Below are positions 1 to 10,210 of a DNA stretch of 10,210 nucleotides, piece after piece. This stretch comes from a virus. How positions within the stretch are numbered: the first letter of the stretch is position 1; each line of letters begins with the position of its first letter. The stretch lies in the UHGV virus genome UHGV-0225709; one strand, written 5' to 3'. The notes beneath the pieces were generated by a model. The model had not been told where the DNA came from and searched no databases. It saw only the letters and a program-made list of their open reading frames with translations. The translations under genes were made by a program, and so were the position numbers.

Positions 1-369
1 TTTTGTCATGACATCAACCCAATTCTTAATACCAGGAATCTCGGTTACTGGACAACTCATATCCCAATAACCAGCCTGTTCCCACGTTAAAACGGGCAAC
101 CGGGCGATGTTGTCACTAATGTAAGGGTACTGATTCAGACGCAGATCATCGGCTTTATCGTGACCGTCCTTTCCATAAAGAATCCATTCAGGAGATTTGG
201 AAAGCAATTTTGACAGTAGATACAAATTCTCACCGTCAGGTTTTGAAGAGCCATTTTCCCATTTTGTTACGGATACACGAGATATGCCGATTGCTTTCGC
301 AACCTGCTGTTGGGTTAATCCAACGTCTTTTCGACGATTCCGAATACGTTCGCTGATAGTGTTTTTCAT
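1..369 (-). CDS. cI: Phage repressor, lambda-cI-like with LexA/S24-type C-terminal domain (partial; the C-terminus lies beyond the window start)
   Basis: Reverse-strand reading frame is open from ATG (complement of 367-369) to the window edge, 123 codons with no stop. The translation begins MKNTISERIRNRRKDVGLTQQQVAKAIGISRVSVTKWENG, a typical XRE/Cro-C1 helix-turn-helix. It continues ...RLPVLTWEQAGYWDMS..., which resembles the lambda cI hinge around its Ala-Gly RecA-stimulated autocleavage site. Absent from the ORF track because it is truncated. Divergent from the downstream cro-like gene. Confidence 0.8.
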   Translation of the reverse strand, partial: MKNTISERIRNRRKDVGLTQQQVAKAIGISRVSVTKWENGSSKPDGENLYLLSKLLSKSPEWILYGKDGHDKADDLRLNQYPYISDNIARLPVLTWEQAGYWDMSCPVTEIPGIKNWVDVMTK

Positions 370-460
370 GTAACCAATGTTACTACCAAGTGATGTTGCT
401 ATGGTTGACATTGTTATGTAACTATTGTTACCCTTTTGCTCGAAATAACAGGAGAGTTTT
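370..460. promoter_or_regulatory. Divergent immunity promoter/operator region between repressor and cro-like gene
   Basis: A 91 bp non-coding gap lies between divergent regulator genes. Two copies of the 14 bp dyad GTAAC-N4-GTTAC occur at 370-383 (gtaaccaatgttac) and 418-431 (gtaactattgttac). A TTGACA hexamer sits at 405-410. The SD ggagag at 444-449 precedes ATG 461. I could not pair the -35 with a convincing -10. Confidence 0.55.
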
Positions 461-676
461 ATGTTCAAAGATGATGTTCTGCGCTATTTCAAAAAAAAGC
501 GACTAGTAGCTGAGGCTCTTGGAATTTCACATGTGGCTGTTGTGCGGTGGAAAGCAGTTATTCCCAAACTTCGCGCAATGGAACTGGATGAAATTACTAA
601 CGGTGAATTGAAATACAACCCAGAACTTTACAAGAAGCAGGATAGCACCTCAAACGAAGGAAAGAATGATTCATGA
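461..676 (+). CDS. cro: Cro-like small DNA-binding regulator (HTH)
   Basis: 71-aa ORF with SD ggagag 12 nt upstream. The motif KKRLVAEALGISHVAVVRWKA is a classic Cro/C1-type HTH. Position immediately divergent from the repressor gene. The stop overlaps the next start (ATGA at 673-676). Confidence 0.75.
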   Translation: MFKDDVLRYFKKKRLVAEALGISHVAVVRWKAVIPKLRAMELDEITNGELKYNPELYKKQDSTSNEGKNDS

Positions 677-1098
677 AAATCAAGCATGAACACATCCGCA
701 TGGCGATGAATGTCTGGGCGCATCCGGACGGCGAAAAAGTACCGGCTGCGAAAATTACCAAAGCGTATTTCGAGCTGGGAATGACGTTCCCGGAACTGTA
801 TGACGACAGCCATCCGGAAGCCCTGGCCCGTAATACCCAGAAAATTTTCCGCTGGGTAGAGAAAGACACCCCTGATGCAGTTGAAAAAATTCAGGCGTTG
901 TTACCAGCGATCGAAAAGGCAATGCCACCTTTGCTGGTGGCCAGAATGCGCAGCCACAGTTCAGCTTATTTTCGGGAGCTGGTGGAGACGCGGGAGCGAC
1001 TGGTGAGAGACGCTGATGATTTTGTCGCAGTGGCAATCGCCGGTTTCAATCAGATGAACCGTGGTGGCCCGGCAGGAAATGCTGTGGCAGTACATTGA
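673..1098 (+). CDS. CII-like phage regulatory protein (YdaT/CP76-like by recollection); function inferred from position
   Basis: 141-aa ORF translationally coupled to the cro-like gene by an ATGA overlap, with SD aaggaaag at 657-664. The product (MKIKHEHIRMAMNVW...) resembles, from memory, the protein encoded after cro-like ydaS in Rac-type prophages. Family assignment not verified. Confidence 0.55.
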   Translation: MKIKHEHIRMAMNVWAHPDGEKVPAAKITKAYFELGMTFPELYDDSHPEALARNTQKIFRWVEKDTPDAVEKIQALLPAIEKAMPPLLVARMRSHSSAYFRELVETRERLVRDADDFVAVAIAGFNQMNRGGPAGNAVAVH

Positions 1099-1169
1099 CT
1101 GACAATAGCCATGTCGAATCGCTTCCGGCAACTCGTGAGTAAAAAGATTCGGTATCAGAAGAGGTGAGT

Positions 1170-2240
1170 ATGGCTAACGCCTGGCTCAGATTATGGCATG
1201 ACATGCCAAATGACCCTAAGTGGCGAACAATTGCCAGGGTGTCAGGGCAGCCAATTGCAACAGTGATGGCAGTATATATCCACCTCCTGGTGAGCGCGTC
1301 ACGAAATGTCACGCGAGGTCACATTGATGTCACGACAGAAGATTTGGCAAGTGCGCTCGACGTGACAGAAGAGGTAATTGATTCAATTTTGCAGACGATG
1401 CAGGGGCGGGTACTTGATGGTGATTTAATCACTGGATGGGAAAAACGCCAGGTGCTGAAAGAGGACAACGGCAATATTTCGCAAACCGCAAAATCTCCGG
1501 CAGAGCGCAAGAGGGCGCAGCGAGAGAGGGAAAGAAAGCGGGAACAAAATGGCGATTGTCACGGCGAGTCACGAAATGTCACGCACATGTCACGACGAGT
1601 CACGACAGATAAAGATACAGATAAAGATACAGATCAAGAAGATCAAAACACTATGGTCCATGGCGTAAAAAACGCCACGAACCAGGCAGGGGATGTTCAG
1701 ACCGTCAATCTCGGTCAGCCAGCAGGCACGACACCGGAAGCCGATTCAGCGTATGCGCTGAAAGCCGATTCGGGCGCTGTGCAGCAGGTGATGACCGCAA
1801 GGCAGGAGCAATCACACCAACTTCAGCAGCCTGAAGCCGATTCCGCCATTCAGCGGGAAGCCGATCGGGTAGTCCCGGAAAACACCGGTCAGTCTGTGGG
1901 ACGAGTGGATTATCCGGATGTGTTCGAACAGGTCTGGCGGGAGTACCCGTTGCGTGCCGGAGCAAACCCGAAGAAATCCGCTTTCAGTGCCTGGAAGGCC
2001 AGATTACGCGAGGGGGTGCCACCAGAGGCCATGCTGGATGGCGTGAGGCGTTACGCAAGATACCTGGCGGCTACCGGGAAAGCGGGAACGGAATTTGTTC
2101 AGCGAGCGACGACGTTTTTTGGACCGGACCGGAATTTTGAGAACCCCTGGTTTCTCCCGGTAAGCGGCACGAACAACCAGCGTTGTGTGAATCATATTAC
2201 TGAACCGGATAACGAAATTCCGCCGGGCTTCAGGGGGTAA
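1170..2240 (+). CDS. Phage replication initiation protein (lambda-O-like organisation, iterons embedded in the gene)
   Basis: 356-aa ORF taking ATG 1170 (the track begins at GTG 1164), with SD gaggtg at 1161-1166. N-terminal region WLRLWHDMPNDPKWRTIARVSGQPIATVMAVY. C-terminal region DYPDVFEQVWREYPLRAGANPKKSAFSAWKARL...GVRRYARYLAATGKAGTEFVQRATTFFGPDRNFENPWFLP matches a motif I recall from phage replication initiator/primosomal-type proteins. Contains iteron arrays and an AT-rich tandem repeat (see repeat features). Sits in the position of P2 gene A. Confidence 0.7.
   Translation: MANAWLRLWHDMPNDPKWRTIARVSGQPIATVMAVYIHLLVSASRNVTRGHIDVTTEDLASALDVTEEVIDSILQTMQGRVLDGDLITGWEKRQVLKEDNGNISQTAKSPAERKRAQRERERKREQNGDCHGESRNVTHMSRRVTTDKDTDKDTDQEDQNTMVHGVKNATNQAGDVQTVNLGQPAGTTPEADSAYALKADSGAVQQVMTARQEQSHQLQQPEADSAIQREADRVVPENTGQSVGRVDYPDVFEQVWREYPLRAGANPKKSAFSAWKARLREGVPPEAMLDGVRRYARYLAATGKAGTEFVQRATTFFGPDRNFENPWFLPVSGTNNQRCVNHITEPDNEIPPGFRG
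1298..1334. repeat. Iteron cluster 1: four GTCAC(G) repeats at 10-11 bp phasing (putative origin element)
   Basis: GTCAC begins at 1298, 1308, 1318 and 1329. An inverted copy CGTGAC lies at 1361-1366. The 17-mer gtcacgaaatgtcacgc at 1298-1314 recurs exactly at 1568-1584. Confidence 0.7.
1558..1650. repeat. Iteron cluster 2 (five GTCACG repeats at 10-11 bp phasing) followed by an AT-rich tandem repeat; putative phage origin of replication inside the rep gene
   Basis: GTCACG at 1558, 1568, 1578, 1589 and 1599. Immediately followed by gataaagataca twice in tandem (1608-1631) and then gatcaagaagatcaaaac. This lies in the region encoding an acidic linker (DKDTDKDTDQEDQ). The arrangement parallels ori-lambda within gene O (iterons followed by an AT-rich unwinding region). 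Confidence 0.7.
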
Positions 2241-2280
2241 GTGTTAATTTCTGGTCATGAGGTAATTTTCAGGAGGGCTT

Positions 2281-2703
2281 GTGGCAAAAGTTTTTACACA
2301 AGAAGAGCGGGAAAAAATTAAAGGGCTGATCGTGGAATTCGTACGCCTTAACGGACGAGGCACGATTCGGCAGTTATCGGATGAAATTGGTGTCAGTCAT
2401 GCGTCTGTCGGTCGTTTATGCATGGAGCTGGCCGCCAGTGGTGATGTTTACAATTCCGGTTACGGAGTATTCCCGTCTGAGCAGGCGCGCAAGGACTGGC
2501 AAAACGCCCGCAAAAAACTCTCAAGGGCAAAGCTGAAGAAACCATCTGTGGTTGATCCGGACCTTATCTGGCTATTACCAGACGGCGAAATACGCCGCTA
2601 CGACAGGCGCCTAAACATAATCTGTCGCGAGTGCCGGAAGAGTGAAGCTATGCAGCGTGTACTGGCTTTCTATCAGGGTAATTTTCAGGAGACGGTACTG
2701 TGA
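2281..2703 (+). CDS. Hypothetical protein with a probable winged-HTH N-terminus and a single C-terminal CxxC
   Basis: 140-aa ORF starting at GTG 2281 with a strong SD aggagg at 2271-2276. GTIRQLSDEIGVSHASVGRLCMELAASG looks like an HTH; followed by a basic stretch (ARKKLSRAKLKK) and CRECRK. No confident family assignment. Confidence 0.6.
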   Translation: MAKVFTQEEREKIKGLIVEFVRLNGRGTIRQLSDEIGVSHASVGRLCMELAASGDVYNSGYGVFPSEQARKDWQNARKKLSRAKLKKPSVVDPDLIWLLPDGEIRRYDRRLNIICRECRKSEAMQRVLAFYQGNFQETVL

Positions 2704-2760
2704 GTGAAATTAGCTATCAGGCTTCAATTACCGCTGGCATTCGCATCAAAGGAGAGGAGC

Positions 2761-3117
2761 ATGGAAATAAAACCAGAGGATGAGTTAAGCAATATCGTTT
2801 TATTTCCGGTAAAAGAGGATGACCCTCGTAATCAGGTTAATTTTCTTTATGAGCCATCGGAAAGACCATATTGTCATCACGCCTCTGTCCGGGTTGACGA
2901 AAAAGAGCGTCAGGTCCGCTGTAAAATCTGCGGTGCAGTTGTGGAGCCGTTTGACTGGATACTCTCTGTGGCGAAAAGAGAAACCAGACTGGCAGATGAT
3001 GTAAGGCTATTGCGCCAGGAGGAACAGGAAAGGCGGAAAAATATAGAAAAGTTAATTCAGATTGAGCGTAACGCGAAAGCGCGGATACGCAGGGCGACAA
3101 AATCCAGAACTGAATAA
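2761..3117 (+). CDS. Hypothetical protein with a putative zinc ribbon (C-x17-CxxC) and a charged, probably coiled-coil C-terminus
   Basis: ATG 2761 preceded by SD aggag at 2750-2754. Product MEIKPEDELSN...CHHASVRVDEKERQVRCKICGAV...RLLRQEEQERRKNIEKLIQIERNAKARIRR. The track ORF starts at GTG 2704 in the same frame; that alternative start is not excluded and is 12 nt downstream of a second copy of the ggtaattttcaggag element. Confidence 0.6.
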   Translation: MEIKPEDELSNIVLFPVKEDDPRNQVNFLYEPSERPYCHHASVRVDEKERQVRCKICGAVVEPFDWILSVAKRETRLADDVRLLRQEEQERRKNIEKLIQIERNAKARIRRATKSRTE

Positions 3118-3167
3118 ATAAATTTAGAGCTGTAAATAAAATCTAATCCTTAACTGGAGGTATATTT

Positions 3168-3380
3168 ATGTTAAATACACAGAAAGCCATTAATGCGGAA
3201 AAATATAACGAGTGGGCAAGAAAATTCTCTGAGCAGATTTTTAAAATTACTGGCGATGAGAATGCGGCAAAAAATGAATTAGAACCGTGGACGCCTGAAG
3301 GAGCCGACTCAAATTATTGCTGGAGGGAGGTTGATCCAGTTGATGCTGCAAATGAAGCTATGAGTTATTACAACGATTAA
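3168..3380 (+). CDS. Small acidic hypothetical protein (70 aa); first gene of the AT-rich cargo segment
   Basis: ATG 3168 with SD ctggagg 6-12 nt upstream. The product has 14 Asp+Glu against 7 Lys+Arg by my count. Lies in markedly AT-rich DNA. Confidence 0.6.
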   Translation: MLNTQKAINAEKYNEWARKFSEQIFKITGDENAAKNELEPWTPEGADSNYCWREVDPVDAANEAMSYYND

Positions 3381-3390
3381 TGTCAGGAGG

Positions 3391-3406
3391 CCGCCCGAAA
3401 GGGCGG
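3391..3406 (+). other. Perfect 6 bp GC stem with GAAA tetraloop (ccgccc-gaaa-gggcgg) directly after an AGGAGG and before two ATGs
   Basis: Seen directly: aggagg 3385-3390, stem 3391-3396 / 3401-3406, ATGs at 3409 and 3413. No U-tract follows, so it is not a canonical intrinsic terminator. May be an RNA processing or translational control element. Confidence 0.5.
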
Positions 3407-3492
3407 TAATGAATGGTCACATTATTTAGAAAAAATATCCGCGAAAGAGTAGAACAACAGAATTTCTGTTTCTCATTCTGTTTATCGTGTTG

Positions 3493-3630
3493 ATGATACC
3501 GATATCCCCGCTAATCCTAGTCTGGATAATCGGAAAAATAATTGAGCCAGTTATTGAATTGTATAACGACGTGGTATGGGCGTCATTCAACACACTGCAC
3601 AATAAAATTAATCCGTATAAGGAAAACTGA
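3493..3630 (+). CDS. Candidate small hydrophobic (single-pass membrane?) peptide, 45 aa
   Basis: ATG 3493 overlaps the stop of a 26-codon upstream ORF (3413-3493) in a TGATG arrangement. Its own stop TGA 3628-3630 sits 1 nt before ATG 3632 of the next gene. Product MIPISPLILVWIIGKIIEPVIELYNDVVWASFNTLHNKINPYKEN has a hydrophobic N-terminal half. Too short for the ORF track. No classical SD of its own, so expression would depend on coupling. Confidence 0.4.
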   Translation: MIPISPLILVWIIGKIIEPVIELYNDVVWASFNTLHNKINPYKEN

Positions 3631-3631
3631 T

Positions 3632-3895
3632 ATGGCAACTTTGACAAAAAAAGAACGGGCATGGTTGAACGAATTACAGGAAGTTCTTGATCGCTGTCCA
3701 TCACCGAAAAAAATTGGCTTTTACACCATTGGCGATAAAAGCATTTACCTGTATGACCTACGCCGCATGGATGAAATCATGGAGGCTCTTGATAATCGTT
3801 CGTCAATGGATTGGTGTGTTGCTGTCCATGATATGAATGCAGGGTTTGATGAAAAGATTTTGTTCCCCTCATCAGTTGAAAGCACAGCAGGATAA
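3632..3895 (+). CDS. Hypothetical small protein (87 aa), last gene before the terminator
   Basis: ATG 3632 with SD aagga at 3619-3623. The track ORF begins at TTG 3542 in the same frame, but the internal ATG with SD is the better start. Product MATLTKKERAWLNELQEVLDRCPSPKKIGFYTIGDKSIYLYDLRRMDEIMEALDNRSS... Followed 37 nt later by an intrinsic terminator. Confidence 0.6.
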   Translation: MATLTKKERAWLNELQEVLDRCPSPKKIGFYTIGDKSIYLYDLRRMDEIMEALDNRSSMDWCVAVHDMNAGFDEKILFPSSVESTAG

Positions 3896-3931
3896 GGACC
3901 CAGCAAATATACACAACCTATAAAACACTAA

Positions 3932-3956
3932 AGCGCCTCAGGGGCGCTTTTTGTTT
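3932..3956 (+). terminator. Rho-independent terminator closing the rightward early/cargo operon
   Basis: Stem agcgcc (3932-3937), loop tcagg, stem ggcgct (3943-3948), followed by tttttgttt. Confidence 0.75.
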
Positions 3957-3982
3957 GCACAAAAGTGCACAAATTTGCACAA
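3956..3982. repeat. Three direct TGCACAA repeats at exactly 10 bp phasing, followed by a T7 tract
   Basis: TGCACAA at 3956-3962, 3966-3972 and 3976-3982. Helical phasing puts the sites on one DNA face. Candidate protein-binding array (small terminase/cosB-like or a regulator). Confidence 0.5.
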
Positions 3983-4052
3983 TTTTTTTGAACGACTTTT
4001 TACCCTTCCGGCCCGCATGGCGGCTGGATCCGTCAAGGATCCGTGCGTGCAC

Positions 4053-4076
4053 AAAAAAACGCGCTTTTTCTGCGCG
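4053..4076 (-). terminator. Candidate Rho-independent terminator for leftward transcription (short stem)
   Basis: On the minus strand: CGCGC-agaaaaa-GCGCG followed by TTTTTTT (plus-strand aaaaaaa at 4053-4059). The stem is only 5 bp, so moderate confidence. Convergent with the plus-strand terminator at 3932-3956. Confidence 0.45.
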
Positions 4077-4353
4077 CAGGTGACGGGGGAACAGCCCGCG
4101 TTTCAGGGGGTAAATAGCATTCCCTGAACGATGTCGCAGAGATACAACAGAATGGCTGTATTTCTCACGCTGAGCGTGAAAAAGACGTGAGGGCTTTTGA
4201 TTTGATGGGGTGAAAGGTAAGGCCGTCAAAATCGCACTGAGACGGCGAGAACATGCAGTCAACGCGGTGGGATTGCGTAAGAGTCTGACTGTCGATGATG
4301 GCAATCAGCAGGAAAGCGTCGTGAAATTATCTGATTGATACAGGAGCTGGAGA

Positions 4354-4382
4354 GCCGGGGCATAAATTTTTTATGCCCCGGC
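4354..4382. other. Inverted repeat / hairpin immediately downstream of the portal gene
   Basis: gccggggcat (4354-4363) pairs with atgccccggc (4373-4382), extendable through flanking A/T. Lies 25 nt past the Q-like stop. No clear U-tract on either strand. Confidence 0.45.
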
Positions 4383-4406
4383 GAAGCAGCAGACAAGCGA
4401 AGCGCG

Positions 4407-5453
4407 TCAGGATGTGGGCTGGGTGTCTAACAGTGCGTAAGGGTTAAAGCGGATCACCTTTTCGCCAAGCCAGTCATTGATGTGCTTCATGGCCTCCATG
4501 ACGGGCATCAGTTCGTTAATTGCGTAAACCCGCGCGGCCTTCTCCACATCACCAAACGCACTTTTTTCGCCCGGCATCGCCCCCATCAGTTGCGGCGGAA
4601 CGCGGTGCGCAGCCAGCACATCATCACGGGATGCCGCCTTAACATTCATGAACTCATCCTTTGCGGTGATCTGCTGGAACGGCAAAATTTGCACCCCCTC
4701 TTTGCCCCCGTTGGGCGCATGAATGAGCACGTTTTTAAACGCACCGCCACCACGCGCACCCTGTAACGTTTCTTTCAGGGAGTCCATGCTTTCGCGGTTT
4801 ACCTGCGCTGCACCGATGTAGATGATGCACCCGGCATGGGATCCGTTGTCGTAATACAGTTTTCTGAACATGTCCGCCGAATGAGACAGGCTGGCCGAGA
4901 GTAATGCGCCAAGATATTCCGGCATGCCGTAGATTTCCTGGTTAATGTCAGGATTCATCAGGTGGCACACTTTGCCTGGGCGAAACTGAAACGCATCCTT
5001 ACCATCCTGCACATACCACCATGATTCAAGATCGCTTCCGCGTCGCATGTATTTCGCTAGGGCGTGCCGTAATTTAAGCGGTTCGCCGAGCATATTGCTT
5101 CGAAGCTCAAGGAATGCGTTACCGAACACAAACCAGTCCAGCGCCAGCGCCGAGAAATCCTGCCGGGAAAGCAGCGGGTGCGGGATGTAGCAACCGAGTA
5201 ATACATTGCGCTTAAAGTAAAGCGCAGACTGATGCCAGGACGTTTGCCGGGCAGCTCTTGCCAGACCGTACCAGTCCACCGGTGTTTCATACCACCGCCC
5301 GTTATCAGCACAGTACATATTGTCCAGCAAATCATGCCCGGTCAGGCGATAAGGACCATCAAATGTGAATGCACTGAGCGATGATTCTTTCCTGAGCGCA
5401 TCAGCGAGATCAATGCGTGAACTCATGCGCACTTTTTTATTTTTTCTGCTCAT
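4407..5453 (-). CDS. Q: Portal protein, P2 gpQ-like
   Basis: 348-aa ORF on the minus strand with SD GGAG 5 nt upstream of its ATG (complement of 5451-5453). Size and position (adjacent to and co-oriented with large terminase, next to the cos region) match P2 Q. The start overlaps the terminase stop (ATGA). Confidence 0.8.
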   Translation of the reverse strand: MSRKNKKVRMSSRIDLADALRKESSLSAFTFDGPYRLTGHDLLDNMYCADNGRWYETPVDWYGLARAARQTSWHQSALYFKRNVLLGCYIPHPLLSRQDFSALALDWFVFGNAFLELRSNMLGEPLKLRHALAKYMRRGSDLESWWYVQDGKDAFQFRPGKVCHLMNPDINQEIYGMPEYLGALLSASLSHSADMFRKLYYDNGSHAGCIIYIGAAQVNRESMDSLKETLQGARGGGAFKNVLIHAPNGGKEGVQILPFQQITAKDEFMNVKAASRDDVLAAHRVPPQLMGAMPGEKSAFGDVEKAARVYAINELMPVMEAMKHINDWLGEKVIRFNPYALLDTQPTS

Positions 5454-7204
5454 CAGAACTCCATAACCGTGAAACGCTCGTTTTCTCCTTCGCCGCCAAT
5501 TGGTTCGTTAATGACAGCAAGCATGGTTGCCCACGCAAGGTCGCCGTGGCTGATCCCCCTCGCGCGGTCCGTTTCGTAAGTGATAAAGCCGCCCGGTGTT
5601 TTCACCTTACGCACGGCGTTAAAGGCTGCGACCAGCTCGCGTTCGGCGCGATCGTATTCCCACCGCCCGGCACGCATTATTTGCAGCATTTTCAGTACCA
5701 GCGACCGTTTTGATGACAGCGTGAAGGTGTACGGAATAGCAGCAGGGAAAAACCGTTTCACTATCTGATAAACAGCCTCCCCGTTCCCGCCTGTCACATC
5801 AATGCCGATGTGTTCCACGTTGTAGCGACACGTGAACTCTTCAATGACTCTGGCCTGTTCTTCAAACTCCAGCCCCTGAACGCGTCGCGTCTCCACCGTT
5901 CGAAAACGGCCTCCAGGAACAGCCGGAGGAACCACCACGGACACAGCGCCGCTGTCGCCGTTTCCACTGCTGCCGTTTGCGTCATACCCAATCCATACCG
6001 GACGATTCCCCATCGGGCGGGGAGCAAAAGGTTTCCAGTCTTTCCAGTCGTCGTATCCGTCAACACCGCAGCCAATCAGGATATTCAGGTTAAATGCCGA
6101 TTCCCCTTCGCGGACAAACTCACACATATAGAGATTGAGGAACTCATCTTCGGTGTTTTCATCACGAATTTCGTCGATATCGGTGTGTTTCCAGCCGTGA
6201 TTAACCACATCTTCCAGCGTGACAATTTGCCGCCACGTCCGGTCAGGGCAGATAAGCCCGTTATGCAGCGTTTTCCAGTCCACAGAAAAACGCTGGCGTT
6301 TATGCGAGGCCTTTTTCTCGTTCCAGCGGTCGCCGTTCCAGTAGGCGTATGCCTCGTGCGTTTCGGTGGATGGCGTGGAAAAGTAGGTGCGCCGCAGTCC
6401 GCTGAGGGTTGCCATAGCGCCAGCCACCTTGCGCAGTTCAGCAAAGCGACTGACCCAGAAAAATTCATCAAAATAAAAATTGCCCGTATAGGACTGTGCC
6501 GACGCAGCAGAAGTGCCGAGAAAATGCAGCTCTGCGCCGTTGGAGAGGATGATTTTATCGCCCCCTTTCAGCTCCACATCAACTTCAGCCGCGGCCTTCT
6601 GAATAATGCTTTTAAACTGGAACGCCTGACGACGCGACGCAGACAAAAAAATCTGGTTACGCTGGTAAGGTTGCGCCACATCGTCACGCAGCGCCATCAG
6701 CAGAGCTTCCTGTGCAAAATACCAGGTCGCCCCAATCTGTCGGGATTTCAGGATCATCCTGTTACGTATCCCGGCTTCCCTGCAAAGGGTCAGGGTGTCA
6801 AACCAGCCCCGCTGATGCCACTCCAGCCTGCTGATGATTTTTTCCCGCAGTGCGGCAATCTGTTCCGGCGTGAAATGATTTTTGAGTTTTTTCGCCCGGC
6901 CTTTCTTTCCTGCGGCCGTCACATCCGGCTGGCCATCATGCAGCTTTTTAAGCTGCCGGGTCAGCAGGTCTATTTCCTTAAAGTCACCGCCTGTTTTATT
7001 CTGTTTTTCAGTAAGCTGGATGAGGCGCGCATCGATGGACTGCGTGACACGCTGCACGGGTGGCGTTTCATCCCACTGGTCGCGTTTTTTCCACGCATAA
7101 ATCGTGTTCGGGTTTATTCCCATCAGACGTGATATTTCTGCGGGCGGATAACCCTGCCAGTAAAGTTGCCGCGCACGCTGGCGCACAAAAGCGTCCTGAA
7201 TCAT
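5453..7204 (-). CDS. P: Terminase large (ATPase) subunit, P2 gpP-like
   Basis: 583-aa ORF. Contains a P-loop-like KSRQIGAT motif and acidic nuclease-domain-like segments. Length and position match P2 P (about 590 aa). SD agggggag upstream of the ATG (complement of 7202-7204). Confidence 0.85.
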   Translation of the reverse strand: MIQDAFVRQRARQLYWQGYPPAEISRLMGINPNTIYAWKKRDQWDETPPVQRVTQSIDARLIQLTEKQNKTGGDFKEIDLLTRQLKKLHDGQPDVTAAGKKGRAKKLKNHFTPEQIAALREKIISRLEWHQRGWFDTLTLCREAGIRNRMILKSRQIGATWYFAQEALLMALRDDVAQPYQRNQIFLSASRRQAFQFKSIIQKAAAEVDVELKGGDKIILSNGAELHFLGTSAASAQSYTGNFYFDEFFWVSRFAELRKVAGAMATLSGLRRTYFSTPSTETHEAYAYWNGDRWNEKKASHKRQRFSVDWKTLHNGLICPDRTWRQIVTLEDVVNHGWKHTDIDEIRDENTEDEFLNLYMCEFVREGESAFNLNILIGCGVDGYDDWKDWKPFAPRPMGNRPVWIGYDANGSSGNGDSGAVSVVVPPAVPGGRFRTVETRRVQGLEFEEQARVIEEFTCRYNVEHIGIDVTGGNGEAVYQIVKRFFPAAIPYTFTLSSKRSLVLKMLQIMRAGRWEYDRAERELVAAFNAVRKVKTPGGFITYETDRARGISHGDLAWATMLAVINEPIGGEGENERFTVMEF

Positions 7205-7358
7205 TGCTCCCCCTGAGTAATTACAGGAAGATTACCCGCGCGCGAAACCGTTCTCCTTAACCCCCTGTTCTGGCCGTTTTCTTACAACAAAAGCCCTTTG
7301 TATCAGCCTGTTACGCTTTGCCATCATGACTGAAGAACCAGTCAGAGGGGCAAAAACT
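7205..7358. promoter_or_regulatory. Divergent intergenic region between the P-like and O-like genes; expected location of divergent late promoters
   Basis: 154 bp non-coding gap between divergently transcribed packaging/head operons, as in P2 (P_P and P_O). I could not find convincing sigma70 -35/-10 pairs nor an exact TGT-N12-ACA dyad (only TGT-N15-ACA at 7266-7286). An 8 bp palindrome gtaattac lies at 7217-7224. Confidence 0.5.
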
Positions 7359-8195
7359 ATGGCTAATGAAAAAAAGACATCCCGCAAAAAGTTTCGCGTG
7401 GCTGTCTCCGGATCAACTGTTGATGGCCGCGAAATCAGCCCGGTACATCTGCGTGAAGCCGCCGAGAACTTCAACCCGGATGTTTACGCTGCCCGCGTGA
7501 ACGTTGAGCACTATCTCTCGCCATGCCCGTCAAGCGAATTTTCCGCAATGGGCGATGTCACCGCGCTGAGTACGGAAGATATTACGGAAGGCCCGCTGGC
7601 CGGACGTACTGCGCTGTATGCAGAAATCGAACCGACCGAGCGCATGAAGCAGCTTGTCGCTGACGGCAAGAAAATCTATTCCAGTATCGAACTGCACCCG
7701 CAGTTCTCCGTTAACGGGCGCGCCTATCTGGTCGGGCTGGCGATGACCGACACCCCGGCAAGCCTGGGCACTGAGCGCCTGAAATTCACGGCACAGCAGC
7801 GTCAGGCGGTGATGACGTTCAACAGTATTCAGGGTGAAGCACCGCTTATCTCCGAAGCCATCGAGTCTGAAATCATCGAAATGGCAGAACAACGCCAGGA
7901 AGAAGGCACCCAGTGGTTTAACCGCGTAATGGGGATTATTGGTCGTGGCCGCAAAGCGGATGACGCCAGTTTCTCCCGTATTCAGGAAGCGGTGGAAGGC
8001 GTCGCAACGTCACAGGCCGACATTATCGACCGTTTTAATGTGCTGGAAACCCGCCATCAGCAGGACAGCAAGAAAATCACGTCACTGACCACAGAGCTGA
8101 CAGCTCTGACGGAAAAACTGCGCACGCAGGACGGCGATCCGCAGAACCGCTTCACCGCAACGGGCGCAGCCTCCGACCAGCTGGCTGACTTCTGA
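7359..8195 (+). CDS. O: Capsid scaffolding protein, P2 gpO-like
   Basis: ATG 7359 with SD agagggg at 7343-7349 (the track begins at ATG 7326, 11 codons upstream). The segments GSTVDGREISPVHLREAAENFNPDVY and ...GRAYLVGLAMTDTPASLGTERLKF... resemble P2 O as I recall it. Correct size (about 280 aa) and position before the major capsid gene. Confidence 0.8.
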   Translation: MANEKKTSRKKFRVAVSGSTVDGREISPVHLREAAENFNPDVYAARVNVEHYLSPCPSSEFSAMGDVTALSTEDITEGPLAGRTALYAEIEPTERMKQLVADGKKIYSSIELHPQFSVNGRAYLVGLAMTDTPASLGTERLKFTAQQRQAVMTFNSIQGEAPLISEAIESEIIEMAEQRQEEGTQWFNRVMGIIGRGRKADDASFSRIQEAVEGVATSQADIIDRFNVLETRHQQDSKKITSLTTELTALTEKLRTQDGDPQNRFTATGAASDQLADF

Positions 8196-8218
8196 TAAGA
8201 CAAAGGAGCAAATTTTTT

Positions 8219-9271
8219 ATGAATCTGGTGATGTCAGATATTACCCGCAACAAGCTGGGTTGCTATATGGCGCAGCAGGCGTCGCTTAACAATATCCCGG
8301 TATCTGCACTGGTATCGCGATTTACCGTGGAACCCGCGGTGCAGCAGCGTTTTGAAAACGCCTCAAAGGAAAGTACCGAATTTACGAAAAGAATTAACGT
8401 GATCGGCGTGACCGACCAGAAAGGCGAAAAAATCCTCCTGGACACCACCGGGCCAATTGCGCGCACGAATAGCAGTTATGACGGCATCAAACGCCGTAAC
8501 CCGAATAACGTGATCGATATGAACTCTCGTCAGTACCAGTGCGAACAGGTGAACTACGATACCTTTATTTCGTACCCACAGCTTGATACCTGGGCGGCCC
8601 ACAGCGATTTTCAGTCCCGTATCAGTACACAGATCGCCCGGCAGGTAGCGCTTGATCGCATCATGATTGGCTTTAACGGCACATCCCACGCCTACGAGTC
8701 TGATTTTCACACCAACAAGCTGCTTCAGGACGTTAACGTGGGCTGGCTGGAGCACATCAGAACCGATGCCAGCGAGCGCGTAATGAATGACGTGACGCTG
8801 ACCTCCCGCAACATGGACAACACTGTGGCGCACGCGGGTAAGTATGCGAATGCCGATGCTCTGGTACAGGATGCGCGCTCATCCCTGCTGGATGAATGGC
8901 ACAAGGAAGCTGACGACCTTGTGGTGATTATGGGGCGCAACCTGTTTAACTCGCTGCGTCTGCCCGTACTGAACAGCATCAGCGGCCAGAATCCCAATGC
9001 GGAATTACTTGCCGGGCAGCTCATCCTGTCATCGCGCACCATTGGCGGGCTGGGCGTGTTCCTTGCGCCGTTCTTCCCGGATGCAACGATGCTGATCACC
9101 TCGTTCAACAACCTGTCGATTTACTGGCAGAAAGGTTCAATGCGTCGCCTGATGAAAGACGAGCCGGAATACAACCGCATCGCCACCTACCAGTCCATCA
9201 ATGACGCTTATGTCGTTGAAGACTATGGCAAGTGCGCGATGGTCACTGGCTTGAAGTTCGCCGACAGCTAA
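8219..9271 (+). CDS. N: Major capsid protein, P2 gpN-like
   Basis: 350-aa ORF with SD aaaggagc at 8203-8210. The segments ...FTVEPAVQQ..., ...IMIGFNGTSHA..., ...VGWLEHIR..., ...DLVVIMGRNL..., ...MLITSFNNLSIYWQ... and ...YVVEDYGKCAMV... match the P2 N family pattern as I recall it. Confidence 0.85.
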   Translation: MNLVMSDITRNKLGCYMAQQASLNNIPVSALVSRFTVEPAVQQRFENASKESTEFTKRINVIGVTDQKGEKILLDTTGPIARTNSSYDGIKRRNPNNVIDMNSRQYQCEQVNYDTFISYPQLDTWAAHSDFQSRISTQIARQVALDRIMIGFNGTSHAYESDFHTNKLLQDVNVGWLEHIRTDASERVMNDVTLTSRNMDNTVAHAGKYANADALVQDARSSLLDEWHKEADDLVVIMGRNLFNSLRLPVLNSISGQNPNAELLAGQLILSSRTIGGLGVFLAPFFPDATMLITSFNNLSIYWQKGSMRRLMKDEPEYNRIATYQSINDAYVVEDYGKCAMVTGLKFADS

Positions 9272-9316
9272 TCAACTCACGGCGGGCATCATGCCCGCCT
9301 GTAACGGAGAGAAAAA

Positions 9317-10117
9317 ATGATTACTCCTGCACAACAACACTGGCAGAACGTGATGGCACAGCGCGCAGGCCGGGCGAATGAAGGTGTGGACCACGCCGCG
9401 CGTACCGCGCATGAAGAGGTGCTGTATCGTCTGCGTCTGGCACAGGCCAGGCTAAAGGGCGTACAGGCCAGAAGCGCGAAAGCCGCCATCAAAAAAGAGT
9501 TGTTGCCGGATTTTTCCGGCTGGATTGAGGGAACGCTGGAAGCTGACGGCGGGCAGCAGGATGAAGTGATTGCCACGCTGATGGTGTGGGCGATTGACTG
9601 TGGCGATCTTCCGCTTGCGCTGCGTATCGGCGCGTATGTGGTCCATCACAACCTCATCATGCCGGATAACTTTGGCCGTACTGCTGCCACGGTACTGACC
9701 GAAGAAATCTGTAATCCGGTACTGACGCAGGCCGGGACGGATGCCGACGCGGATTTGTCCGCCTTTATCGAACCACTGGACACCCTCCGGGAGATTGTCA
9801 CCGACCAGGACATGCCGGACGAAGTGCGCGCCAAATTATGCAAAGCGTGCGCCTTTGCCCGCCGTGGCCTGACCGATGCGGACAGCATGGCCTCATCACT
9901 GAAGCTGCTGCGCGAAGCAATGCACCTGAACCCGAACGCAGGTGTGAAACGCGAGATTGCAACCCTTTCCCGCGCCCTGAAAAAAGCCGATTCCGCAGCC
10001 GCACCAGAAGATGCCAGCACACCGCAGGCGCAGGACGAAAGCAGCAAAAGTAAAAAGACAACGCGGAAGCCTGCAACACGAAAAACCACCGCGACGCAGA
10101 AGGCGAAGCGCGGTTAA
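9317..10117 (+). CDS. M: Terminase small (endonuclease) subunit, P2 gpM-like
   Basis: 266-aa ORF with SD ggagag at 9305-9310. N-terminus MITPAQQHWQNVMAQRA..., ...KKELLPDFSGWIEG... and a basic K/R-rich C-terminal tail are characteristic of P2 M-type small terminases. Gene order O-N-M. Confidence 0.8.
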   Translation: MITPAQQHWQNVMAQRAGRANEGVDHAARTAHEEVLYRLRLAQARLKGVQARSAKAAIKKELLPDFSGWIEGTLEADGGQQDEVIATLMVWAIDCGDLPLALRIGAYVVHHNLIMPDNFGRTAATVLTEEICNPVLTQAGTDADADLSAFIEPLDTLREIVTDQDMPDEVRAKLCKACAFARRGLTDADSMASSLKLLREAMHLNPNAGVKREIATLSRALKKADSAAAPEDASTPQAQDESSKSKKTTRKPATRKTTATQKAKRG

Positions 10118-10132
10118 CGACTGACCCCGTCA

Positions 10133-10204
10133 GCGGGCGGCGTGCGCGGTGTTCCGGTTTGACTCCGTGACCGTTTACACCGCGCACCCACCGCCCGATT
10201 TTTT
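10133..10204 (+). other. Long imperfect inverted repeat followed by a T6 tract between the M-like gene and the next SD (terminator- or attenuator-like)
   Basis: Left arm gcgggcgg-cgtgcgcggtg (10133-10151) pairs with caccgcgcac (10178-10187) and ccgcccg (10191-10197) across a 3 nt bulge. Loop is about 26 nt. tttttt at 10199-10204, then caggag SD at the window edge. Confidence 0.4.
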
Positions 10205-10210
10205 CAGGAG

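What the first reader, a model, noticed from the sequence alone, without database searches (positions are those of the whole stretch)
3118..3956. AT-rich cargo island of small genes just upstream of cos, the P2 tin/old-equivalent hotspot: candidate undescribed defence, exclusion or anti-defence module
Hand counts of 60-nt blocks give about 25-43% G+C here, against about 50% in the flanking replication and structural genes. The island opens with an AT-rich promoter-like stretch and ends at a strong intrinsic terminator. It holds only short ORFs: an acidic 70-aa protein, a possible 26-codon leader, a 45-aa hydrophobic peptide and an 87-aa protein, the last three linked by overlapping or abutting stop/start codons. 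It sits between the replication gene and cos, where P2-like phages are known to carry variable anti-phage cargo (established knowledge). None of the products resembles a family I can name.
Basis: partly seen in the sequence, partly recalled or inferred. Interest (0 to 1): 0.85.

Follow-up and report, generated by a model that had tools for sequence, protein, structure and literature searches.

The report
Ordinary lambdoid accessory genes beside cos
The AT-rich "island" is the tail end of a common lambda-type early operon: two intact small genes of unknown function and one broken gene. It lies next to a P2-type packaging site only because the sequence switches phage type inside a shared gene, so it is not a new defence module.

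Summary
The AT-richness (39% G+C against 50-55% in the flanks), the small ORFs and the terminator at 3930-3950 are real.

The "26-codon leader" and the "45-aa hydrophobic peptide" are not separate genes. They are the two halves of one 72-codon DUF4014 gene, broken by a one-base contraction of an A-run. NCBI marks the same allele as frameshifted in E. coli O26:H11.

All three genes belong to catalogued but uncharacterised phage families:
- Gene A: phrog_4659.
- Gene B: DUF4014 / phrog_1832.
- Gene C: phrog_1714, the family of ST64T Orf-87.

The whole block is about 99% identical in 216 complete E. coli genomes. There it lies in the nin-like region of Rac/Qin-type lambdoid prophages, far from any cos site.

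- Window 1-3898 is 99.87% identical to such a prophage.
- Window 3628-10210 is up to 99.6% identical to P88-like (P2-type) phages.
- The switch falls inside the shared gene C, between 3719 and 3804.
- No collection searched holds this junction, so it is either a rare recombinant or an assembly chimera.

I found no match to any defence model. The scan found no promoter of its own for the block. Relatives of gene C also occur in Chi-like phages, which I know as virulent. Defence is therefore unlikely. A role that benefits the phage early in infection remains possible but is untested. Interest is low.

The parts
3098..3167 (+). Leader of module A. This AT-rich stretch travels with gene A whichever gene lies upstream, and it carries GGAGG 6 nt before the ATG.
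   Evidence: Homology to loci where A follows DUF977 directly (L010, L013, L014, L016) starts at 3098. No sigma-70-like site was found on the + strand.
3168..3380 (+). Gene A: a 70-aa acidic protein of family phrog_4659, predicted as three helices. Function unknown. Found only in Escherichia and Shigella.
3390..3407 (+). GC-rich hairpin with a GAAA loop and no U-tail, between A and B. In related phages it is repeated at the edges of inserted gene cassettes.
   Evidence: Folding energy -16.9 kcal/mol, z = -4.0. Two copies each in ArgO145 (L003) and in L017, bracketing extra genes.
3413..3630 (+). Gene B: a DUF4014 / phrog_1832 small membrane protein (72 aa when intact), here a pseudogene. One base is missing from the A-run at 3430-3435 (A7 in the closest intact alleles). 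This splits the gene into a 26-codon ORF and a 45-47-codon ORF.
   Evidence: Alignment with 933W L0067 and ArgO145. Allele comparison. Pfam PF13198 scores 78.4 bits for an intact homologue (ArgO145) and 56.8 bits for the window's own 47-aa fragment, against a cut-off of 23.2. PGAP notes 'frameshifted' in O26:H11 11368. An intact allele is annotated in RM14723.
3632..3895 (+). Gene C: an 87-aa protein of family phrog_1714 (the family of ST64T Orf-87), with a confidently predicted small alpha/beta fold that has no structural neighbour. Function unknown. It is shared by lambdoid, P22-like, P88-like, Chi-like and other phages.
3719..3804 (.). Crossover interval inside gene C, where the window switches from lambdoid-type to P88-like-type sequence.
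   Evidence: The lambdoid locus L035 has no mismatch from 1 to 3804, then mismatches at 3805, 3826, 3886, 3889 and 3892. P88-like loci mismatch at 3655-3718 and then not again until about 4016-4150.
3930..3950 (+). Intrinsic terminator ending the early operon. It belongs to the P88-like backbone that carries gene C last.
   Evidence: The stretch 3890-3947 (the end of gene C through most of the terminator hairpin) is found exactly in 8 P88-like IMG/VR contigs. Lambdoid homology ends at 3898.
3957..4406 (.). cos-proximal non-coding region of the P88-like backbone. It includes a conserved 42-codon ORF (4210-4338) and a long hairpin at about 4352-4385.
   Evidence: 96-98% identity to P88 and relatives from 3956 onward. 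The record of Xuanwuvirus P884B11 begins at window position about 4001, which hints at the genome end (inference).
2281..3117 (+). Upstream context in the same operon: a DUF977 / 'Ren-like' gene (2281-2703) and a phrog_1621 zinc-ribbon-like gene (2761-3117).
   Evidence: The same gene order occurs in lambdoid prophages.
4407..5453 (-). P2-type portal gene (gpQ homologue), the far border of the cos-proximal locus.

Best explanation
The island is the AT-rich distal end of a Rac/Qin-type lambdoid early-right operon. The gene order is: cro-like, YdaT/cII-like, replication, DUF977, phrog_1621, A, B, C. It holds three independently mobile, non-essential accessory genes:
- A: phrog_4659.
- B: DUF4014, dead here because of a one-base deletion.
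- C: phrog_1714, the family of ST64T Orf-87.

The island touches a P2-type cos site only because the window changes from lambdoid to P88-like sequence inside gene C. Both phage types carry gene C, and in P88-like phages it is the last gene before the terminator and cos.

**Shown**
- The family memberships and the frameshift.
- The near-identity of each half of the window to a different phage type.
- The crossover interval.
- The lack of any defence hit.

**Inferred**
- The genes are read through from the upstream early promoter, with B and C translationally abutting.
- Transcription stops at the 3930-3950 hairpin.
- Expression therefore comes in lytic growth or induction, not in the lysogen.
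- A and C most likely act as small binding proteins that serve the phage, through host takeover, counter-defence or tuning of the lysis-lysogeny choice, as reported for exo-xis region ORFs. They are unlikely to protect a lysogen.
For: **Families**
- The frameshift is shown, and by the PGAP 'frameshifted' note.

**Where the block normally lies**
- Window 3000-3898 is 98.8-99.4% identical in 216 complete E. coli genomes.
- There it always sits between DUF977 or phrog_1621 and DUF551, hok, DUF968, RusA and Q.

**The two halves of the window**
- Window 1-3898 is 99.87% identical to L035, L037 and L038, with 5 mismatches, all at 3805 or later.
- Window 3628-10210 is 95-99.6% identical to P88-like loci, whose gene C mismatches all lie at 3718 or earlier.

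**Gene C in P88-like prophages**
- Gene C is the last gene before cos in gpA/ParM-type prophages such as E. coli 55989 and PhiR44_2.
- In UMNF18, DUF4014 and C are followed by one further gene before cos.

**The genes are not a unit**
- A occurs with other genes between it and B in ArgO145.
- B occurs without C in 933W and in an epsilon15-like phage.
- C occurs without A or B in 55989, 689R5, ST64T and FSL SP-030.

**Other points**
- A and C are under purifying selection.
- The scan finds no + strand promoter at the island. It lists only weak + strand terminator-like sites before 3930: one upstream of the operon at 308-325 and a 5-pair stem at 2427-2439.
- There are no PADLOC hits for A, B or C.
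- Lambdoid exo-xis ORFs are early genes that affect the lysis-lysogeny choice (PMC3824215 and PMC7093339, listed).
Against: - No experiment bears on the function of any of the three families, and literature searches found nothing.
- The promoter scan is crude and also misses the operon's own early promoter. An internal promoter in 3098-3167 is therefore not excluded, and that leader does travel with gene A.
- The exact A-B-C-cos junction was found in no other sequence. The arrangement rests on this one window.
- Timing of expression is inferred from gene order alone.
Confidence: 0.75

Rival explanations
1. The block is a prophage-borne defence or superinfection-exclusion module. It would occupy the P2 old/tin-equivalent hotspot, be expressed in the lysogen and block incoming phages.
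For: - It lies next to cos and the portal gene, which is the hotspot of Rousset et al. 2022.
- Its composition is AT-rich.
- B, when intact, is a small membrane protein, as some exclusion proteins are (inference).
- The gene content at this locus varies among P88-like phages.
Against: - There are no PADLOC hits for A, B or C.
- The scan found no promoter of its own.
- The usual home of the block is the lytic early-right operon of lambdoid prophages.
- Relatives of gene C occur in Chi-like phages and in 120-141-kb phages, which have no lysogen to protect. That these phages are virulent is my own knowledge.
- The candidate membrane component is a pseudogene here and in 30 of the 40 best E. coli matches.
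- The three genes do not travel as a unit.
- The accessions searched are absent from the supplementary files of Rousset et al. held as text.
Confidence: 0.05
2. Gene C, and perhaps the acidic gene A, is a counter-defence or host-takeover protein. It would be a small early protein that binds and blocks a conserved host enzyme or immune sensor.
For: - Gene C is placed early in temperate and in Chi-like phages.
- Its distribution is wide, across Enterobacterales, Vibrio and Aeromonas phages.
- It is under purifying selection.
- It has a compact, confidently predicted fold with an invariant CPS motif plus conserved G, YD and P positions.
- A has a net charge of about -7, as some inhibitor and DNA-mimic proteins do (sequence; inference).
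Against: - There is no similarity by sequence or fold to any known inhibitor.
- No anti-defence library was available to search.
- No informative domain fusions were found.
- Most small early phage genes have no known role, so the prior for any one function is low.
Confidence: 0.2
3. The position next to cos is an assembly artefact. A lambdoid contig and a P88-like contig from one genome would have been joined through the shared 271-nt gene C segment.
For: - Each half of the window is nearly identical to a different, common phage type.
- The switch lies in an 86-nt stretch where the window matches both parental types exactly.
- The junction is absent from 5,426 complete E. coli genomes, 50,697 phage records, IMG/VR, JGI metagenomes and GTDB representative genomes.
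Against: - Homologous exchange between prophages at shared genes is common in E. coli (established knowledge).
- An 86-nt identical stretch is enough for such exchange in vivo.
- The window shows no sequence anomaly at the joint.
Confidence: 0.3
4. The frameshifted allele of B still makes protein. One route is a -1 ribosomal slip on the A AAA AAT heptamer at 3430-3436, which would restore the 72-aa frame. The other is re-initiation at the overlapping TGATG at 3491-3495, which would give a 45-aa peptide.
For: - The heptamer lies in the zero frame, and a -1 slip there gives MVTLFRKN-YPRKSR..., matching intact alleles except for K to N (sequence).
- The frameshifted allele is widespread.
- L033 differs from the window at only one other position in 3.9 kb, yet it has the intact run.
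Against: - No significant downstream structure is predicted (z = -1.2).
- No Shine-Dalgarno sequence lies ahead of 3487 or 3493 (sequence).
- The heptamer is an automatic by-product of shortening A7 to A6.
- PGAP treats the allele as a pseudogene.
Confidence: 0.1

Closest known systems
nin-type and ea/exo-xis-type accessory ORFs of lambdoid and P22-like phages. One example is ST64T Orf-87 in the ea region. Another is the pair 933W L0067/L0066 between exo and xis.
   Same: - Small, AT-rich, abutting ORFs in early operons.
- Non-core and shuffled gene by gene among phages.
- Gene C is a homologue of ST64T Orf-87 (58.6% identity).
- Gene B is a homologue of 933W L0067.
- The whole block sits in the nin-like region of Rac/Qin-type prophages.
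   Different: - Here the block ends at a P2-type cos site instead of continuing to DUF551, hok, RusA and Q.
- B is frameshifted.
- None of the three families is among the exo-xis ORFs that have been studied (orf60a, orf61, orf63, orf73, ea8.5, ea22; papers listed).
The cos-proximal gpA-gpQ hotspot of P2-like phages (P2 old and tin; Rousset et al. 2022, PMC9122126).
   Same: - The block lies next to cos and the portal gene.
- Content at this locus varies among P88-like relatives.
- Gene C with its terminator is a frequent last gene at this locus in gpA/ParM-type prophages.
   Different: - There is no gpA in the window; the replication module is lambdoid.
- No defence model is hit by A, B or C.
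- The products are 70-87 aa, with no nuclease, ATPase or other enzymatic domain.
- The scan found no promoter of its own.
Pfam DUF4014 (PF13198) / phrog_1832. Some records label members 'released from the phage upon host infection' or 'acetyltransferase inhibitor'.
   Same: Gene B matches over the full model once the missing base is allowed for. Homologues are present in Stx phages, ES18, epsilon34, g341c, HK225 and D6.
   Different: The copy in the window is interrupted. I could trace neither functional label to any experiment, so I treat both as unverified.

Membership tests
Pfam DUF4014 (PF13198) / phrog_1832 | Profile match above the curated cut-off | tested here: met
   An intact homologue (ArgO145) scores 78.4 bits and the window's own 47-aa fragment scores 56.8 bits, against a cut-off of 23.2. 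phrog_1832 E = 2.5e-42 for the ArgO145 homologue and 4e-28 for the window's fragment.
Pfam DUF4014 (PF13198) / phrog_1832 | An uninterrupted reading frame of about 72 codons | tested here: not met
   One base is missing from the A-run at 3430-3435, and the frame breaks after codon 7-8. PGAP flags the same allele as frameshifted.
phrog_4659 | Full-length profile match | tested here: met
   E = 3.2e-48, residues 1-70 against model positions 1-70.
phrog_1714 (family of ST64T Orf-87) | Full-length profile match and homology to Orf-87 | tested here: met
   E = 9.5e-51, residues 1-87 against model positions 1-87. tblastn gives 58.6% identity to ST64T over 100% of the query.
Lambdoid nin-like early-right accessory region | Lies downstream of the replication genes on the same strand, as small abutting ORFs shuffled among lambdoid phages | tested here: met
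   Gene order in the window. Identical order in lambdoid prophages. Mosaic matches to different phages for each gene.
P2-like gpA-gpQ cos-proximal hotspot cargo (Rousset et al. 2022) | Bordered by portal gene gpQ and adjacent to cos | tested here: met
   Portal gene at 4407-5453 on the - strand. 96-98% identity to P88-like phages from 3931-3956 onward.
P2-like gpA-gpQ cos-proximal hotspot cargo (Rousset et al. 2022) | Bordered on the other side by the gpA replication endonuclease | tested here: not met
   The replication gene at 1164-2240 is phrog_3729 (a lambdoid replication initiation protein type), and no gpA is present in the window. Window 1-3898 is lambdoid.
Known anti-phage defence systems (PADLOC-DB v2) | At least one protein matching a defence model | tested here: not met
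   No hit for A, B or C at E up to 1. The only hit in the neighbourhood is a chance-level one for DUF977 (Csa3, E = 0.011).
P2 Old / Tin | An OLD-family ATPase-nuclease, or a Tin homologue | tested here: not met
   No Pfam, NCBIfam or PADLOC match of that kind. The products are only 70-87 aa.
Known anti-defence proteins (Ocr, ArdA, Gad, Tad, Acb and similar) | Sequence or fold similarity to a characterised inhibitor | tested here: inconclusive
   There is no Pfam hit, no PDB sequence hit and no fold neighbour for C. A gives only generic helical matches. No dedicated anti-defence library was available.
Multi-gene system (operon acting as a unit) | The genes co-occur and are swapped together | tested here: not met
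   A-B-C co-occur in one prophage lineage, but each gene is found without the others elsewhere.

The most novel reading that the evidence does not exclude
Gene C belongs to the phrog_1714 family (ST64T Orf-87). It is an 87-aa protein with a confidently predicted fold that matches no solved structure. It is conserved in the early regions of lambdoid, P22-like, P88-like, Chi-like and large myovirus-size phages of Enterobacterales, Vibrio and Aeromonas. The most novel reading my evidence does not exclude is that it is an uncharacterised counter-defence or host-takeover factor aimed at a conserved host target. Because it is shared across phage types, it would also act as a recombination bridge that lets lambda-type early regions be joined to P2-type late regions.
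Probability: 0.15. Interest if true: 0.45.

Novelty: already known. Interest (0 to 1): 0.18.

Why it matters
It matters little as a discovery. The exact proteins are already on hundreds to thousands of public contigs and sit in catalogued families of unknown function.

The useful outcomes are corrective:
- A supposed leader-plus-peptide pair is one broken gene.
- A supposed hotspot island is a junction between two phage types.
- The case shows how one shared small gene can link lambda-type and P2-type genomes, either in vivo or in an assembler.

Gene C is a reasonable low-cost candidate for screens of phage early proteins. It is widespread, under purifying selection and structurally unlike any solved structure.

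Tried and rejected
- **Defence models.** PADLOC gave nothing for A, B or C.
- **Curated families.** NCBIfam gave nothing above cut-off. Pfam gave only DUF4014 for B, and DUF977 for an upstream neighbour.
- **RNA families.** An Rfam scan of 2900-4500 returned only a chance-level SprD match, 17.7 bits against a gathering score of 100.
- **Structure route for A.** Only generic three-helix matches appeared, so I drew no inference.
- **PDB profile searches.** Nothing was found.
- **Guilt by fusion for C.** The few longer proteins that contain the domain have no Pfam domain and look like fused gene calls.
- **Literature.** There were no papers on DUF4014, the RefSeq accessions or the PHROG ids. The 'acetyltransferase inhibitor' label could not be traced.
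- **Rousset et al. supplements.** The accessions and the term DUF4014 do not occur in the files held as text.
- **Search for the same junction elsewhere.** It is absent from phage records, complete E. coli genomes, IMG/VR, JGI metagenomes and GTDB representative genomes.
- **Frameshift stimulator.** The stretch downstream of the slippery site does not fold better than shuffled sequence.
- **Antisense ORFs.** I judged the 92-aa ORF at 3426-3704 and the 128-aa ORF at 3918-4304, both on the - strand, to be spurious. Both run antisense to conserved sense-strand features. The two promoter-like sites on the - strand are no more than chance gives.
Full report
**Layout of the window**

Genes 461-3895 all lie on the + strand. 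They form a lambda-type early-right operon:
- 461-676: a P22-Cro-like gene.
- 673-1098: a YdaT/cII-like gene.
- 1164-2240: a replication initiation gene, phrog_3729.
- 2281-2703: a DUF977 gene, which PHROGs labels 'Ren-like exclusion protein'.
- 2761-3117: a zinc-ribbon-like gene, phrog_1621.
- 3118-3956: the island under review.

From 4407 onward the genes are P2-type head genes: portal and large terminase on the - strand, then scaffold, capsid and small terminase on the + strand. They are 95-98% identical to P88-like phages (genus Xuanwuvirus).

**Check of the observation**

- The fall in G+C is real. The island has 39.3%, against 50.3% upstream and 54.5% in the head genes.
- The 70-aa ORF lies at 3168-3380 and the 87-aa ORF at 3632-3895. 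The terminator hairpin at 3930-3950 is also real.
- The scan finds no + strand promoter-like site in 2900-4500. The scan is crude and also misses the operon's own early promoter, so this carries limited weight.

**The 'leader' and the 'hydrophobic peptide' are one broken gene**

I aligned 3381-3660 with 933W L0067 and with its ArgO145 homologue. Both encode a 72-aa protein, and the window lacks one base.

- The closest intact alleles read AGA AAA AAA TAT, giving MVTLFRKKYPRK.
- The window has six As at 3430-3435, so the frame breaks after codon 7-8.
- The intact protein and the window's downstream fragment both match Pfam DUF4014 and phrog_1832.
- NCBI's pipeline marks the identical allele as 'frameshifted' in E. 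coli O26:H11 11368. It annotates an intact DUF4014 protein in strain RM14723.
- Among the 40 best E. coli matches, 30 are 899 nt long (frameshifted) and 10 are 900 nt long (intact).

**The other two genes**

Gene A is a full-length member of phrog_4659.
- Its homologues are confined to Escherichia and Shigella, and all are labelled hypothetical.
- The predicted structure is three helices, with only generic structural matches.

Gene C is a full-length member of phrog_1714.
- Its model is confident (pLDDT 91.7), with the order helix, strand, strand, helix, helix, strand.
- A profile search finds 209 clusters at 50% identity. Nearly all are stand-alone proteins of 80-95 aa, and the few longer ones carry no known domain.
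- The conserved core is RCPSPxKIGFYTIGD ... YD ... FP.

Both genes show purifying selection. dN/dS is 0.27-0.40 for A and 0-0.38 for C. Distant C alleles have saturated synonymous change but dN of only 0.22-0.35.

The exact protein sequences are already public on many contigs: A on 380, C on at least 1,000.

**Where the block normally lives**

Window 3000-3898 is 98.8-99.4% identical in 216 complete E. coli genomes. In every context I examined, A, B and C lie in the nin-like region of Rac/Qin-type lambdoid prophages. They come after DUF977 or phrog_1621 and before DUF551, hok, DUF968, RusA and the Q antiterminator.

The three genes are not an obligate unit:
- ArgO145 has three other genes between A and B, and an HNH gene after B.
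- 933W has L0066 after B.
- An epsilon15-like phage has DUF551 after B.
- C follows an Ea22-like gene in 689R5 and in ST64T, where it is Orf-87 of the ea region.
- C is gp43 among the early and nucleotide-metabolism genes of the Chi-like phage FSL SP-030.
- C relatives also occur in genomes of 120-141 kb and in Vibrio, Aeromonas and Yersinia phages.

**Why the block touches cos here**

- Window 1-3898 is 99.87% identical, with 5 mismatches and no gap, to lambdoid prophage segments L035, L037 and L038. All five mismatches lie at 3805-3892.
- Window 3628-10210 is 95-99.6% identical to P88-like prophages and IMG/VR contigs. Their mismatches in gene C lie at 3655-3718, and none follows until about 4016-4150.
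- The window therefore changes parent inside gene C, between 3719 and 3804.
- Genuine P88-like prophages, with gpA, ParM and ParR, often carry gene C and the same terminator as their last gene before cos. E. coli 55989 and PhiR44_2 are examples. UMNF18 carries DUF4014 plus C, followed by one further gene.
- So gene C does belong to the gpA-gpQ hotspot of Rousset et al. 2022. A and B do not.
- The A-B-C-cos junction is absent from 5,426 complete E. coli genomes, 50,697 phage records, IMG/VR, JGI metagenomes and GTDB representative genomes.
- It is therefore either a rare in-vivo recombinant or an assembly chimera across a 271-nt shared segment. I cannot tell which without the reads.

**Function**

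- No defence model matches A, B or C, and no curated family beyond DUF4014 does either.
- The genes follow the replication genes on the same strand with short or no gaps.
- Before 3930 the scan lists only weak + strand terminator-like sites: one upstream of the operon at 308-325 and a 5-pair stem at 2427-2439.
- I therefore infer expression by read-through during lytic growth, not in the lysogen.
- Chi-like phages are virulent (my own knowledge). The presence of C relatives there argues for a role that serves the phage, not a lysogen.
- The best-studied parallels are the exo-xis ORFs of lambda and Stx phages. These are early genes that shift the lysis-lysogeny choice (PMC3824215, PMC7093339, listed).
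- A specific counter-defence role for C or A is possible but has no direct support.

**Verdict**

It is unsupported as to defence. The block is an already catalogued set of uncharacterised phage genes, one of them dead, lying at a junction between two phage types. Interest is low. Only gene C merits a place in a screen of early phage proteins.

Noticed in passing
window 3719-3804 (whole window as context): The window is a mosaic of two phage types. Positions 1-3898 are lambdoid (Rac/Qin-type). Positions 3628-10210 are P88-like (P2-type). The switch lies inside the shared gene C. No other sequence with this junction was found, so it may be a rare recombinant or a chimeric assembly.
   Followed up: yes
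window 3390-3407; L003 3157-3175 and 4229-4247; L017 4757-4775 and 5821-5839: A GC-rich hairpin with a GAAA loop and no U-tail recurs at the edges of gene cassettes in related phages. ArgO145 carries three extra genes between two copies of it. It may be a module-boundary or recombination linker, or an RNA processing or stability element.
   Followed up: partly
window 3430-3436: The one-base loss in the DUF4014 gene leaves a zero-frame A AAA AAT heptamer. A -1 slip there would restore the full-length frame. Locus L033 differs from the window at only one other position in 3.9 kb, yet it has the intact A-run. The run length therefore flips between very close relatives, or is miscalled in some assemblies.
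   Followed up: partly
window 2281-2703: A DUF977 gene just upstream of the island matches phrog_142, labelled 'Ren-like exclusion protein', and is called LygF in some phage records. It is the only gene near the island with an exclusion-related label, and I did not study it further.
   Followed up: no
window 4413-4432; L001 6788-7418; L007 5460-6090: Between the cos region and the portal gene stop, PhiR44_2 and vB_EcoM-705R2 carry about 630 extra bases with a 525-nt ORF ('FIG00643476'), which the window lacks. This is a second small variable spot in P88-like phages.
   Followed up: no
window 4210-4338 and about 4352-4385: A 42-codon ORF is conserved and annotated in P88 and its relatives. It is followed by a long perfect inverted repeat (GCCGGGGCATAAA/TTTATGCCCCGGC) placed between it and the convergent portal gene, probably a two-way terminator. 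Some RefSeq genomes annotate an 'XF1762 family protein' in this stretch.
   Followed up: no
window about 4001: The record of Xuanwuvirus P884B11 starts at the position that aligns with window 4001. This suggests that the cos cut lies about 50 nt downstream of the island's terminator.
   Followed up: no
window 461-1098: The cro-like and cII-like genes match the Pfam families named YdaS/YdaT 'toxin' (P22_Cro, YdaT_toxin). This ties the early region to Rac-type prophages, not to lambda itself.
   Followed up: no
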